Of a stretch of DNA of 25,275 nucleotides, positions 2,645-10,544 are shown piece after piece. The position numbers were made by a program, and so were the translations under genes. This DNA is from a virus (lineage: Duplodnaviria > Caudoviricetes), in the IMG/VR virus record IMGVR_UViG_3300030012_001854, positions 1-25,275 of that record; one strand, 5' to 3'. Position 1 is the first letter of the stretch. Each line of letters starts with the position of its first letter. Under the pieces are notes generated by a model that worked only from the letters and a program-made list of their open reading frames with translations, was not told the DNA's origin and ran no database searches.

Positions 2645-2768
2645 AAAAGATAATCCGTTTGATGGTCCAGGAGTAAAAGTAGGATCAGAAGAGTTTAAGA
2701 ATATGGTCTTAGGTGTAATGATAAATAAACATAATAATCCTGACGAAGACTTTGATCTTACAAAGTGA
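2631..2768 (+). CDS. 45-aa micro-ORF MAKNKKDNPFDGPGVKVGSEEFKNMVLGVM...
   Basis: SD AGGAG upstream; GTGA overlap with the SET gene. Confidence 0.6.
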   Translation: MAKNKKDNPFDGPGVKVGSEEFKNMVLGVMINKHNNPDEDFDLTK

Positions 2769-3070
2769 CCTATAAACCATTACCTAGTTACCTTACAATA
2801 AAACCAAGCAAGATAGATGGACTCGGATTATTTACATTAGTTGACATTGATAAAGGTGTTAACTTAGGTGTAACGCACATTCAAGTTGACTTAGACCAAT
2901 ATCCACATGTTGATGAGATTGTGCGCACACCTTTAGGTGGTTTTATAAATCACAGTGACACACCTAATCTAAAAAAAGTACAAGACCGTAAATTATTTTT
3001 TGTATACACGATCGTTGACATACCTATGGGAAGTGAATTATGCTTGAAGTACGAATGGTATAAGTTATAG
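2765..3070 (+). CDS. Stand-alone SET-domain protein (putative lysine methyltransferase)
   Basis: SKIDGLGLF (motif I), GFINHSDTPN (NHS motif), DIPMGSELCLKY (ELxxxY). Confidence 0.88.
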   Translation: MTYKPLPSYLTIKPSKIDGLGLFTLVDIDKGVNLGVTHIQVDLDQYPHVDEIVRTPLGGFINHSDTPNLKKVQDRKLFFVYTIVDIPMGSELCLKYEWYKL

Positions 3071-7958: not shown

Positions 7959-8217
7959 TGACTAAAGCCGCGCGCCCTTCCGTGTTAGATCTAAACAAGT
8001 TATTAACCTGGCATGCGGTATATCGATTTTAAATAATAGTATGGTGATTCTATGGCGAACGCATGCGCAAGCAGTACAACGCAAACAGCGGACAGAACAC
8101 GACACAGCACGACATACGACCGCATACGTTATATATGCAGTATATATTAACCCCCATACTTCAACCGGCGTCGTGCGAATATGTATATGTATAACCCAAT
8201 GTTTACGTGGTAATTTG

Positions 8218-8295
8218 TGGAGGTGGCAGGAGTTGCACCTGCGTTGAGTTAGTTAATTAGGAACAAACAGCTAACTGCGATCTAGTAACACCCCC
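8218..8295 (-). ncRNA. Mini-tmRNA-like RNA: tRNA-like domain only, no internal tag reading frame
   Basis: GGGGGUG/CACCUCC acceptor with G3.U70 and discriminator A; 12-nt unpaired D region UUACUAGAUCGC; AGUUAG/CUAACU stem; AAC-GCAGG-UGCAACU-CCUGC T arm; CCA not encoded. Confidence 0.78.
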
Positions 8296-8302
8296 AGTGG
8301 AC

Positions 8303-8311
8303 ATTGTACCA
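8303..8311 (-). promoter_or_regulatory. Extended -10 promoter of the tmRNA-like RNA
   Basis: TGgTACAAT ending 7 nt before G1. Confidence 0.65.
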
Positions 8312-8353
8312 TATATAGTGGCACTATAGGTGGTATATCACTAGATATAGTGC
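8306..8353. promoter_or_regulatory. Tandem NrdR-box-like operators
   Basis: GTACCATATATAGTGG (8306-8321) and TCACTAGATATAGTGC (8338-8353) match acaCwAtATaTwGtg; 32-bp offset. Confidence 0.65.
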
Positions 8354-8404
8354 TATCGCACTATTCTTGTTATATAGAGCCGAGTCGACCGTATAGATAT
8401 AGCT

Positions 8405-8600
8405 AACCCTGTGTCACTCCCAACCCAAACCAGTTTATTAAGTGTAGTGATCAGTTTTTGCTTCTCTCTCGTATCTAATAAATAAAATGTGAGGAAGGTC
8501 CCTCAACGGACGACTAAGGCGGTCCTGCTAAGCCAACCTATCGATAACGATTCTTGAACATGTGTACCTTGTATAGGCAGGAAGCACACACTGCTTGTTC
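8405..8600 (-). ncRNA. Candidate structured RNA divergent from terL (boundaries approximate)
   Basis: Several stems (AAGCA/UGCUU, CCUGC/GCAGG, CCUAU/AUAGG, UGAGGG/UCCUCA, UCACU/AGUGA) downstream of a minus-strand promoter. Confidence 0.35.
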
Positions 8601-8604
8601 CGAT

Positions 8605-8634
8605 ATGGTACACTATAGCATATAGATATGTCAA
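8605..8634. promoter_or_regulatory. Overlapping divergent promoters at the terL start
   Basis: Plus: TGgTACACT 8606-8614. Minus: TTGACA (8634-8629), 18 nt, TACCAT, and also TGcTATAGT (8620-8612). Confidence 0.5.
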
Positions 8635-10544
8635 ATAAACAAAAAAACACACTCTGTACAGCAGGAGACTGCACCGTCCCTTTACCAGAAGGTCGTAGAA
8701 AATACTGTAGTAATACGTGTGCGGAACGCACAAAGAAGCGTGCATATAGAGCTAATAAATCTACAGAAGATTTCCAAGAAATAAAAGAAGTAGATGAACA
8801 AGTACAGAAACGACGTGGCGACTACTACGCCATTATGAAGAAAAAAAATTTTTTCGACGATATTCTAAGGGGGGACAAGACGAAAAAACAGGTATCGGAT
8901 ATACTATCCTGCAGTCCTGCAACAGTGAGTCGAGCTATGGCAGCGTATCTAGAAGATAAAGCAAAAGAAGCCGAATACGAAAAACGATCCGCAGCGACAG
9001 TGGGGGAGATACAGGAAGCCGATGTCGACGATTTCGTAAAATTTAGAGATGATTATTTCTTAACAGAACAAGGTAAAAATTATGAGACACCAGACTTCCA
9101 AAGAAGGTGGATTAGTGCTATCTTAGATAGTATACAACACGGTAAAAGGTTGATGATACTGTCACCACCTAGACATGGTAAGACAGACTTGTTAACACAC
9201 TTTTGTGTCTATATGATTGCAAAGAATCCGAACATACGTATCATGTGGTGCGGTGGTAACGAAGATATAGCAAAGAACAGTGTTGGCGCAGTGTTAGATC
9301 ACCTGGAGAACAATGAAGGACTCATACAAGATTACGGAGATTGGGACGGATTTAGACCTGCTAATAGAAGCGGAAAAAGTTGGTCGTCCAGTCAATTTAC
9401 TGTTGCAACTAGAACAGTCTCTGGTATCAAGTCACCAACTCTTGTTGCTATTGGAAAAGGAGGTAAAATTCTCTCCAGAGACGCGGACCTTATTATTGCA
9501 GACGACATCGAAGATCATGGCACAACTGTGCAACCTAGTGCTAGAGAAAACACAAGAAACTGGTGGACCACAACGCTACAGTCAAGAAAAGAAGAACATA
9601 CAGGTATGGTCGTTATCGGATCACGGCAACACCCCGACGATCTATACCATCACCTCTTAGATAACAGAGCATGGGAATCTATCATAGATAGAGCGCATGA
9701 CCTAGAAGTACCACTAGAAGACGAAACTATAGACCAAACAAAACACATGTTATGGGCAGAAAAAAGAAGTCATAAATGGTTATTAGAACAATTATCTGCA
9801 GCAGAGACAACAGGTGGTAGAAACATATTTGAGATGGTATATCTTAACAAAGCTATACCTGATGGCATGAGTTTGTTTACAGCAGAAGCAGTAGATAGTT
9901 GTTTAGATCCGTCAAGAAAACTAGGTGACATACCGCCACATACTGCATTGATAGCAGGACTCGATCCGGCAAGTACAGGATACCAGGCAGCAGTATTGTG
10001 GGCATATAACCTACAAACACAACAGATATGGTTAGTAGATATAAAAAACGATCAAGGTGGTGGTATTAAAAAAGCACATGACTTGATGAAGGAATGGTAT
10101 GACAAGTATTGGTTATCACATTGGATTATAGAAGAAAACGGTTTCCAAAAAGCTATAGGTCAAGATAGAGATATACGTAACTGGGCAGCAGCTAACGGTG
10201 TAAGAATAGAAGGACACCAGACATACAAAAACAAATGGGATCCTACCTTTGGTGTTACAAGTATGGTAGGTATGTATGAAAATCAAAAAGTAAATCTAGC
10301 ATGGGGAGACGCTGCAACAAAACGTAAAGTAAATATATTTAGACAACAACTTTTATATTTTTCACAAGCAGGTGCTTCTAATTCACGTAATGTAAAAACA
10401 AAAACTGACTTAGTTATGGCTAGTTGGTTCCCTATGAAACGTATACGTACAAGTGTAAAAATGATGTTAGCAGAAGCAGATAGCGACTATACTCCTAGTT
10501 ATAGTTATTATAAAACAAGTGATTACAATGAGGTTTTTTGGTAA
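8628..10544 (+). CDS. terL: Terminase large subunit with N-terminal Zn-finger and HTH extension
   Basis: Walker A LSPPRHGKT, Walker B LIIADDIED, VIGSRQHPDDL, nuclease AGLDPAS, IIEENGFQ, TDLVMASWF. Confidence 0.95.
   Translation: MSNKQKNTLCTAGDCTVPLPEGRRKYCSNTCAERTKKRAYRANKSTEDFQEIKEVDEQVQKRRGDYYAIMKKKNFFDDILRGDKTKKQVSDILSCSPATVSRAMAAYLEDKAKEAEYEKRSAATVGEIQEADVDDFVKFRDDYFLTEQGKNYETPDFQRRWISAILDSIQHGKRLMILSPPRHGKTDLLTHFCVYMIAKNPNIRIMWCGGNEDIAKNSVGAVLDHLENNEGLIQDYGDWDGFRPANRSGKSWSSSQFTVATRTVSGIKSPTLVAIGKGGKILSRDADLIIADDIEDHGTTVQPSARENTRNWWTTTLQSRKEEHTGMVVIGSRQHPDDLYHHLLDNRAWESIIDRAHDLEVPLEDETIDQTKHMLWAEKRSHKWLLEQLSAAETTGGRNIFEMVYLNKAIPDGMSLFTAEAVDSCLDPSRKLGDIPPHTALIAGLDPASTGYQAAVLWAYNLQTQQIWLVDIKNDQGGGIKKAHDLMKEWYDKYWLSHWIIEENGFQKAIGQDRDIRNWAAANGVRIEGHQTYKNKWDPTFGVTSMVGMYENQKVNLAWGDAATKRKVNIFRQQLLYFSQAGASNSRNVKTKTDLVMASWFPMKRIRTSVKMMLAEADSDYTPSYSYYKTSDYNEVFW

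What the first reader, a model, noticed from the sequence alone, without database searches (positions are those of the whole stretch)
8218..8311. Phage mini-tmRNA: a stand-alone alanine tRNA-like domain with no message
Seen: the minus strand reads GGGGGUG UUACUAGAUCGC AGUUAGCUGUUUG UUCC UAAUUAACUAACU CAAC GCAGG UGCAACU CCUGC CACCUCC A (78 nt). It has a 7-bp acceptor with G3.U70 and A73, no D stem, and a 3' end closely resembling tmRNA (GAC GCGGG UUCAACU CCCGC CAGCUCC A). Helix 2 is simply capped, so there are no pseudoknots and no tag ORF. An extended -10 (TGgTACAAT) sits 7 nt upstream. Known: G3.U70 is the AlaRS determinant and SmpB binds the TLD elbow; message-less tmRNAs exist in some protist mitochondria, and reduced phage versions may have been noted before (not verified). 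Inference: an SmpB/EF-Tu decoy that blocks host trans-translation and degradation tagging, a tag-free rescue RNA, or a decoy for tRNA-targeting defences.
Basis: partly seen in the sequence, partly recalled or inferred. Interest (0 to 1): 0.88.

Follow-up and report, generated by a model that had tools for sequence, protein, structure and literature searches.

The report
Split phage tmRNA with partner RNA
This marine phage carries a conserved 78-base copy of the tRNA-like head of the bacterial ribosome-rescue RNA (tmRNA) whose loop is complementary, with matching changes across relatives, to a second structured sequence just upstream that likely forms a partner RNA and may supply a two-codon message, which would let the phage free stalled ribosomes without marking proteins for destruction.

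Summary
Confirmed at 8295-8218 (minus strand): a 78-nt tmRNA tRNA-like domain (TLD) with G3.U70, A73 and no D stem. It lies upstream of terL in 57 of 61 relatives scanned, with compensatory stem changes and elbow covariation. Message-less phage TLDs are published (DS6A), and this scan found them before on other DNA.

The TLD loop (8271-8260) is complementary over 12 bp to the 5' end (8601-8590) of an unannotated structured sequence with its own -10 element. A helix of 9 bp or more is present in 50 of 51 distinct relative pairs; four tether pairs change on both sides. The partner's best resume-like site of 193 columns is followed by two codons and a stop in 10 of 13 variants.

Most likely reading: a split tmRNA giving rescue without a degradation tag (0.45). 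Against it, the resume codon sits in a covarying hairpin and 3 variants lack the stop. No transcript was seen. NrdR-like boxes overlap the TLD promoter.

The parts
8218..8295 (-). tmRNA tRNA-like domain (TLD), 78 nt: acceptor 8295-8289/8225-8219 with G3.U70, A73 at 8218, stemless D loop with A18-G19, P2a 8276-8271/8252-8247, connector CAAC, T arm 8242-8226
8260..8271 (-). tether segment of the TLD arm, complementary to 8601-8590
8303..8311 (-). extended -10 element of the TLD, 7 nt before G1 (promoter function inferred)
   Evidence: a -10-like hexamer at this spacing in 32 of 33 distinct copies
8307..8352 (.). palindromic NrdR-box-like sites at 8352-8339 and 8320-8307 (32 bp apart), with a weaker one between, overlapping the TLD -10
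   Evidence: 31-32 bp spacing per PMC2892513
8612..8620 (-). second extended -10 element (TGcTATAGT), predicted promoter of the partner RNA; lies just upstream of the terL start
8400..8606 (-). predicted partner RNA (3' end unknown; a terminator-like hairpin at 8505-8490 could end it near 8481)
   Evidence: no Rfam hit
8590..8601 (-). 5' tether strand of the partner (GGAACAAGCAGT)
   Evidence: left unpaired by RNAalifold of the partner alone
8523..8590 (-). pseudoknot or kissing-loop domain: stem A 8590-8583/8568-8561, stem B 8582-8577/8528-8523
   Evidence: stem A 6 of 8 pairs changed on both sides, 100% paired; stem B nearly invariant, so untested by covariation
8503..8516 (-). resume-like context UAGUC (8516-8512), then GUC CGU UGA (8511-8503): candidate two-codon message Val-Arg-stop
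   Evidence: translation not shown
8489..8511 (-). small hairpin or pseudoknot (stems C, D) that contains the candidate resume and stop codons
   Evidence: stem C 3 of 4 pairs changed on both sides; stem D 87.5% paired, no covariation
8407..8482 (-). AU helix 8482-8476/8440-8434 and an invariant 20-mer at 8426-8407, role unexplained
8628..10544 (+). terminase large subunit (divergent neighbour, used as the marker for relatives)
   Evidence: phrog_38, E 3.8e-68

Best explanation
The 78-nt element is a conserved tmRNA tRNA-like domain whose arm loop is complementary, with compensatory changes, to the 5' end of an upstream structured sequence, and the two likely form a split two-RNA tmRNA that would rescue stalled ribosomes without adding a degradation tag. 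Inferred steps: each piece is transcribed from its own extended -10 promoter (or both are cut from one roughly 390-nt precursor). Host enzymes add CCA and alanine; host SmpB and EF-Tu deliver the TLD to a non-stop ribosome. The partner, held by the 9-12 bp tether where helix 2 normally leads on to PK1, presents UAGUC|GUC-CGU-UGA, so the chain gains Ala-Val-Arg and is released with no C-terminal ALAA degron. By using SmpB it would also compete with the host tmRNA. Shown: sequence, covariation, co-occurrence. Not shown: transcription, charging, binding, translation.
For: TLD under structural selection. It keeps equivalents of the SmpB contacts named in PMC8363625: the window has U-C-G before P2a and A at connector -2; across 33 distinct copies, G in the last two D-loop bases in 26 and A at -2 in 29. 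Tether: 9 bp or more in 50 of 51 distinct TLD/partner pairs. Different tether sequences in three terL subclades, with a block-diagonal duplex-energy matrix. Random 75-nt windows matched as well in 0-12 of 150 draws. On 18 aligned relatives, 45 named pairs are 95.9% paired, 17 change on both sides, 4 of them in the tether; 0 of 500 shuffles reach this; slid controls are 36-48% paired. Internal G.U pairs in 9 of 51 tethers fit minus-strand RNA pairing. Both parts occur together: 57 of 58 assessable loci with the partner's 20-mer carry the TLD; sister-clade loci lack the TLD (0 of 77; 0 of 33 by covariance model) and the partner's -10 (0 of 21). Resume context: natural tmRNAs have Y(-5) 69, A(-4) 70, R(-3) 70, Y(-1) 70, G(+1) 71 of 71. 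In the 77-80-nt clade the best of 193 columns (4.67 of 5, A(-4) in 18 of 18) is window 8511, 11 nt after stem B; E. coli has 11 nt ending UAGUC. A86 (-4) is the main frame determinant (PMC2481249). Two codons then a stop in 10 of 13 variants, one with UAA in place of UGA.
Against: The candidate resume codon is the 5' strand of covarying hairpin C, and its changes are explained by pairing; PMC2481249 reports that pairing around the resume codon can block activity. RNAalifold pairs the first part of the 11-nt linker, unlike the single-stranded E. coli linker. 3 of 13 variants lack the early stop and read 47-65 codons. In the 90-93-nt subclade the candidate (GILKALD-type, 7 aa in 9 of 11) is only second best of 237 columns and also lies in a stem; the 107-nt subclade is uninformative. 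The tether joins the 5' side of the loop in two subclades and mainly the 3' side in the third, where it shows no both-side change. The D-loop UCGA of typical tmRNAs is absent in 23 of 23 clade copies against 21 of 42 other phage minis. Four of 33 copies have G3-C70 and lack the D-loop G and the AC connector. One contig (L056, 95% terL) has the TLD's 3' end deleted. Element identity (0.73) is no higher than that of its near flanks (0.74-0.79). Relatives are redundant and related, so counts overstate independence.
Confidence: 0.45

Rival explanations
1. The two RNAs pair, but the partner is not translated. It is a structural or regulatory subunit: it stabilises, sequesters or times a DS6A-like SmpB decoy, or acts as a dummy mRNA-like domain that jams trans-translation.
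For: All pairing evidence fits equally. The resume and stop codons lie in stems; 3 of 13 variants lack the stop. Copies with G3-C70 keep a 10-bp tether, and a DS6A-like molecule is reported to inhibit tmRNA whether or not chargeable (PMC4131195).
Against: Does not explain why the best resume-like column falls 11 nt after stem B with invariant A(-4), nor the UGA-to-UAA change that breaks a stem D pair but keeps a stop.
Confidence: 0.3
2. The TLD works alone as a DS6A-type inhibitor of host trans-translation. The upstream sequence is only its leader, and pairs in cis in a precursor to control processing or feedback on expression.
For: Published precedent; the class is widespread in phages. Both elements lie on one strand within 390 nt, so cis pairing is possible. 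The TLD has its own -10 and NrdR-like boxes.
Against: Stand-alone minis close the arm with a short capped stem, and no tether stood out in 43 of them (one chance-like match inside a coding region) or in DS6A. This clade has open 14-45-nt loops. A separate promoter directly before G1 makes a processing leader unnecessary.
Confidence: 0.15
3. A tRNA-shaped bait or substitute against host tRNA-targeting defences, or a tRNA-like handle for genome packaging next to terL.
For: Intact elbow; position beside terL; contig ends cluster 508-607 nt upstream of terL in 6 of 30 truncated loci.
Against: No anticodon arm. The sister clade packages with a 53% identical terL and has no TLD near it. Retention of tmRNA-specific features points to SmpB.
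Confidence: 0.07
4. An attP remnant, pseudo-tRNA or decaying tmRNA fragment without function.
For: Sub-threshold Rfam score; 3' deletion in L056; acceptor identical to that of Acidimicrobiia tmRNAs.
Against: Compensatory changes in all stems and at the elbow; both tmRNA ends present; no tyrosine integrase or resolvase in 5 of 5 near-complete relatives; T stems differ from the putative host's tmRNA.
Confidence: 0.03

Closest known systems
TLD-only ('standard, no CDS') tmRNA of mycobacteriophage DS6A (tmID 11587; PMC4131195, PMC11915505; Mao et al. 2009 as cited there, not read)
   Same: One-piece TLD of about 79 nt with G3.U70, A73, stemless D loop, P2a, T arm, no encoded CCA; scores 36.8 bits on the clade model.
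   Different: DS6A keeps D-loop UCGA and closes its arm with a short capped stem; no matching partner strand was found near it. This clade has an open loop that covaries with an upstream structured sequence, an A18/G55 elbow in 13 of 33 copies, and NrdR-like boxes.
Circularly permuted two-piece tmRNA (alpha- and beta-proteobacteria, cyanobacteria; RF04321; PMC3985003)
   Same: Function split over two base-paired RNAs; opened ring; message with a free 3' end and few pseudoknots.
   Different: There the TLD itself is divided between coding and acceptor pieces of one permuted transcript. Here the TLD is whole, the partner lies upstream with its own predicted promoter and docks on the arm loop, and no degron-like tag is seen.
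Standard tmRNA (RF00023), including 2-aa Ala-Ala tags of Fermentibacterota (PMC11915505)
   Same: Order helix 2 - pseudoknot - 11-nt linker - Y-A-R-N-Y|G resume context; AAC connectors and the AG/G55 elbow also occur in natural full-length tmRNAs (L366, L372).
   Different: Not one RNA; candidate tags Val-Gly, Val-Arg, Met-Gly, Ile-Arg lack terminal Ala-Ala; resume codon inside a hairpin.
CDS-less organellar tmRNAs (jakobid and oomycete mitochondria, 65-nt Mallomonadaceae plastid genes; PMC11915505)
   Same: Reduced to the TLD, no tag frame within it.
   Different: Phage-borne, in a host that would have its own full tmRNA; has a partner element.

Membership tests
tmRNA TLD | 7-bp acceptor with G3.U70 and A73 | tested here: met
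   G3.U70 in 29 of 33 distinct copies, G3-C70 in 4
tmRNA TLD | stemless D loop, P2a, short connector, T arm with D/T elbow contact | tested here: met
   (elbow concordant in 33 of 33)
tmRNA TLD | SmpB-contact bases (E. coli A15, U17, C18, G19, A334; PMC8363625) | tested here: inconclusive
   window keeps A after the elbow pair, U-C-G and connector A; full UCGA absent in 23 of 23; G in 26 and A in 29 of 33
tmRNA TLD | Rfam RF00023 gathering score 47 | tested here: not met
   26.5 bits; relatives 27.9-52.6 bits, one above the cut-off
tmRNA TLD | CCA addition, alanylation, SmpB and EF-Tu binding | not testable with these tools
   bench work needed
DS6A-type TLD-only tmRNA | no tag frame or pseudoknot inside the TLD gene | tested here: met
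   18-nt loop
DS6A-type TLD-only tmRNA | self-contained capped arm with no partner strand | tested here: not met
   tether in 50 of 51 pairs; none evident in DS6A or 43 other minis
Permuted two-piece tmRNA | gene order T arm/CCA first, then 5' acceptor strand; TLD split between pieces | tested here: not met
   TLD is one colinear piece; RF04321 only 19.4 bits, E 0.18
tmRNA mRNA-like domain (partner) | pseudoknot, then about 11 nt, then Y-A-R-N-Y|G resume context | tested here: met
   77-80-nt clade; second best in the 90-93-nt clade, unresolved in the 107-nt clade
tmRNA mRNA-like domain (partner) | single-stranded resume region and conserved short frame | tested here: inconclusive
   resume codon in stem C; stop after 2 codons in 10 of 13
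tmRNA mRNA-like domain (partner) | tag ending in a hydrophobic ALAA-type degron (PMC3985003) | tested here: not met
   VG, VR, MG, IR; GILKALD-type
tRNA | D stem and anticodon arm | tested here: not met
   loop triplets not conserved
NrdR operator | tandem palindromes 31-32 bp apart over a promoter | tested here: met
   32 bp in the window; 31 bp before the RNR gene in putative hosts; spacing varies among relatives
NrdR operator | NrdR binding and repression | not testable with these tools
   none

The most novel reading that the evidence does not exclude
A new gene form of tmRNA: a whole alanine-accepting TLD and a separately promoted message RNA that docks on the TLD's arm loop, encodes a two-codon non-degron tag, and lets an abundant marine phage clade replace the host's rescue-and-destroy system with rescue-and-keep, switched by the host dNTP sensor NrdR. 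Some other 'message-less' phage TLDs with open loops may likewise have unrecognised partners.
Probability: 0.4. Interest if true: 0.9.

Novelty: new variant of a known kind. Interest (0 to 1): 0.74.

Why it matters
The 2025 tmRNA database lists five forms: standard, permuted, intron, and two without CDS (PMC11915505). A whole TLD with a detachable message is not among them. If real, it shows that the tRNA and mRNA halves of tmRNA can be made separately and joined by a short helix. It gives a natural test of whether ribosome rescue or proteolysis tagging is what matters to a phage, and a modular tool for re-tagging stalled proteins. Even if the partner is not translated, a covarying RNA-RNA contact between a tRNA mimic and an unknown pseudoknotted RNA is a new handle on what phage mini-tmRNAs do.

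Tried and rejected
Expression: 8 runs laid, all as contigs. Four RNA runs covered only terL pieces; one RNA-labelled viral run covered the element at background depth with its flanks. This is no evidence either way.

Loop motif as an anticodon: rejected, the triplets differ. Loop as antisense to the putative host tmRNA: no better than shuffles in 32 of 33. Tag frame starting after the second hairpin and ending at UAAUAAA: frame not conserved. The TTGACA at 8634 as the partner's -35: wrong spacing to TATAGT, and it is the reverse of the terL start codons.

attP: no integrase or resolvase. Phage SmpB: none in 5 of 5. WhiB as a host marker: 0 of 5. terL in GTDB by pattern: none. GenBank phages by blastn: none. 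Genome-wide NrdR-box counts are not enriched (11 against 5-13 in shuffles); only the local cluster is.

Partner strands for other minis: one of 43 exceeded shuffles clearly (L128, inside a coding region, not seen in similar minis). Among the longer-armed hits (47 loci) a few exceeded 5 shuffles and were not followed up. A degenerate search for the partner's 3' motif was mis-specified and found 0. The careful terL tree did not finish; the quick tree was used.

Full report
OBSERVATION. The pattern has one match in the window and none in 100 shuffles. ARAGORN calls nothing. Rfam gives tmRNA RF00023 at 26.5 bits, below the cut-off, a score that short tRNA-sized matches also reach. The window is a fragment of a tailed phage; terL (8628-10544) and portal follow on the plus strand.

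THE TLD IS REAL. Of 78 terL-related loci, 61 had DNA upstream of terL and were scanned by structure. 57 carry the element on the minus strand 310-380 nt upstream; three misses are too short and one (L056) has the 3' end deleted. More distant members add 36 of 37, 77-107 nt long. Acceptor and T stems pair in 252 of 252 cells, 26 with both sides changed, 0 of 500 shuffles. D-loop GG goes with T-loop U55 and AG with G55 in 33 of 33 distinct copies (L421 corrected by eye); on the quick terL tree this needs about three switches by my reading. The same AG/G55 elbow occurs in two natural full-length tmRNAs. G3.U70 holds in 29 of 33; the four G3-C70 copies also lack the D-loop G and the AC connector. 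The sister clade (about 53% terL identity) shows no TLD near terL: 0 of 77 by pattern (many with short flanks), 0 of 33 by covariance model, 0 of 24. These are flanks, not whole genomes. Raw identity of the element (0.73) does not exceed its near flanks, because the flanks are themselves conserved elements.

PRIOR ART. A phage 'TLD only' tmRNA is published for DS6A and reported to inhibit host tmRNA in E. coli (PMC4131195, passages; PMC11915505, passages and part 1 of section 12; the primary paper, Mao et al. 2009, was not read). I read the DS6A sequence. One pattern drew 120 of an estimated 1100 IMG/VR stretches; ARAGORN left 60 uncalled, and I picked 48 loci (42 distinct) by eye as TLD-only. 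Earlier notes of this scan report the same class on other genomes. The bare finding is therefore a known kind.

WHAT IS DIFFERENT HERE. Typical minis keep D-loop UCGA (21 of 42) and close the arm with a short stem. This clade lacks UCGA (0 of 23) and has open loops with a conserved pyrimidine-rich stretch. Aligning the intergenic region showed why. A second extended -10 at 8620-8612 precedes a sequence whose 5' end (8601-8590) is complementary to the TLD loop (8271-8260) over 12 bp. The match changes with the loop: GGAACAAGCA in the window, GGAUAAGCAU in L011, GGGAUAACUA in L027, UGUGUACAAG in the 91-nt forms, UUUUAUAAG in the 107-nt forms. A contiguous helix of 9 bp or more is present in 50 of 51 distinct pairs; the exception, L480, looks recombinant and has one mismatch. 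Cross-pairing energies are block-diagonal by subclade, and random windows do as well in 0-12 of 150 draws. On a plain MAFFT alignment of 18 relatives, 45 pairs that I named from the alignment are 95.9% paired, 17 have both-side changes (4 in the tether, 6 of 8 in stem A, 3 of 4 in stem C), against 36-48% for slid controls. RNAalifold on the partner alone recovers stems A and C and leaves the tether unpaired. In the 90-93-nt subclade the tether is 96% paired but shows no both-side change. The partner has no Rfam match. Its invariant 20-mer occurs in 61 IMG/VR loci; 57 have the TLD, 3 are too short, 1 is L056. The sister clade lacks the partner's -10 (0 of 21).

IS THE PARTNER A MESSAGE? In tmRNA, helix 2 leads to PK1, an 11-nt linker and the resume codon (E. 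coli). Among 71 natural tmRNAs fetched here the context is Y-A-R-N-Y|G at 69-71 of 71 per position; A(-4) sets the frame (PMC2481249, abstract and passages). In the 77-80-nt clade the best-scoring of 193 columns is window 8511, 11 nt after stem B, context UAGUC|G, with A(-4) in 18 of 18. Two codons and a stop follow in 10 of 13 variants (VG, VR, MG, IR), one using UAA at the cost of a stem D pair. None ends in the ALAA degron (PMC3985003, passages). Against this: three variants read 47-65 codons; the resume codon is the 5' strand of hairpin C; part of the linker can pair; the 90-93-nt candidate is second best of 237 and in a stem; three 107-nt sequences cannot decide. I put the pairing at about 0.9 and translation of the partner at about 0.45.

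MECHANISM (inferred). Host enzymes add CCA (encoded in only 2 of 33) and alanine (G3.U70 and A73 are the AlaRS keys, PMC3968760, passages). Host SmpB binds the elbow; the window keeps equivalents of U17, C18, G19 and A334 (PMC8363625, passages); the phage encodes no SmpB. The tethered partner supplies two codons and a stop, so the ribosome is freed and the product escapes tag-directed proteolysis, while host tmRNA loses SmpB. Rivals: an untranslated partner (0.3), a stand-alone decoy with a cis leader (0.15), defence bait or packaging (0.07), a remnant (0.03).

CONTROL AND HOST. Palindromes at -25, about -41 and -57 overlap the TLD promoter. Two or more such boxes (recalled consensus, up to 2 mismatches) lie within 900 nt upstream of terL in 47 of 49 clade loci and 4 of 53 sister loci. 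They are 32 bp apart in the window; NrdR sites are 31-32 bp apart (PMC2892513, passages). The 107-nt forms lack them. The host is not established. One of 65 unnamed 0.6-1.1-Mb Acidimicrobiia genomes holds contigs with 52-57% identical terL and no TLD; binning could explain this. I infer Ca. Actinomarinales from size and GC (PMC7771536 and PMC3861242, passages). Those genomes have NrdR (5 of 5), near-identical boxes 31 bp apart before their RNR gene (4 of 4 loci), and a tmRNA with the same acceptor stem and tag AKPKLALAA.

NOVELTY. Ten literature searches (listings only unless cited above) showed no whole-TLD-plus-separate-message form. The 2025 database lists none; PMC10085705 (passages) mentions only permuted tmRNAs; PMC8545117 (passages) was irrelevant. 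The library lacks most subscription papers, and I opened no supplements; the tmRNA database supplements could hold clade members. This scan's notes hold nothing on this sequence or on a split form. Verdict: new variant of a known kind, interest 0.74.

Noticed in passing
window 8352-8307; relatives L003-L079, L421-L498: Two to three NrdR-box-like palindromes over the TLD promoter, nearly identical to boxes before the RNR gene of the putative host order; no RNR among 48 proteins of two relatives scanned.
   Followed up: partly
window 8426-8407: 20-mer invariant in 18 of 18 aligned relatives, with a related form in the 107-nt subclade and none in the 90-93-nt subclade; DNA or RNA role unknown.
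   Followed up: partly
window 8620-8608: The partner's -10 overlaps a possible plus-strand -10 (TACACT) just before the terL start, suggesting a bidirectional promoter with leaderless terL.
   Followed up: no
window 8016-8150: Low-complexity stretch with 20-30-fold higher contig depth in one viral run; contig ends of relatives cluster 508-607 nt upstream of terL. Possible genome terminus.
   Followed up: no
L075, L077, L078, L426: Copies that lost G3.U70, the D-loop G and the AC connector together but keep all stems and the tether.
   Followed up: partly
L056 2667-2584: TLD with its 3' end deleted in a 95% terL relative that keeps the partner; single contig, may be an assembly error.
   Followed up: partly
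L480: Apparent recombinant joining one subtype's TLD with another's partner; tether has one mismatch.
   Followed up: partly
L643, L647, L656, L660, L663, L664, L666, L668, L672, L674, L676, L679, L680, L686: Longer message-less tmRNA-like genes (100-124 nt) with branched arms in unrelated phages; two loci (L658, L669) are minis with a duplicated 5' end.
   Followed up: no
L094 2501-2590: Open-loop TLD in a phage not linked to this terL clade here, with a similar loop motif; a 10-nt complement lies 2260 nt upstream.
   Followed up: partly
L082, L085, L096, L102, L128, L161, L186 and DS6A: Unrelated minis share a CACG(A) arm loop; no common partner found.
   Followed up: partly
window 2765-3070 and 8628-8760: SET-domain protein (PF00856) in the early region; CGNR zinc-finger-like N-terminus on terL.
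   Followed up: no
G161 C30, C36: A roughly 1.1-Mb Acidimicrobiia genome holds two 54-58-kb phage contigs with three sister-type terL copies.
   Followed up: partly
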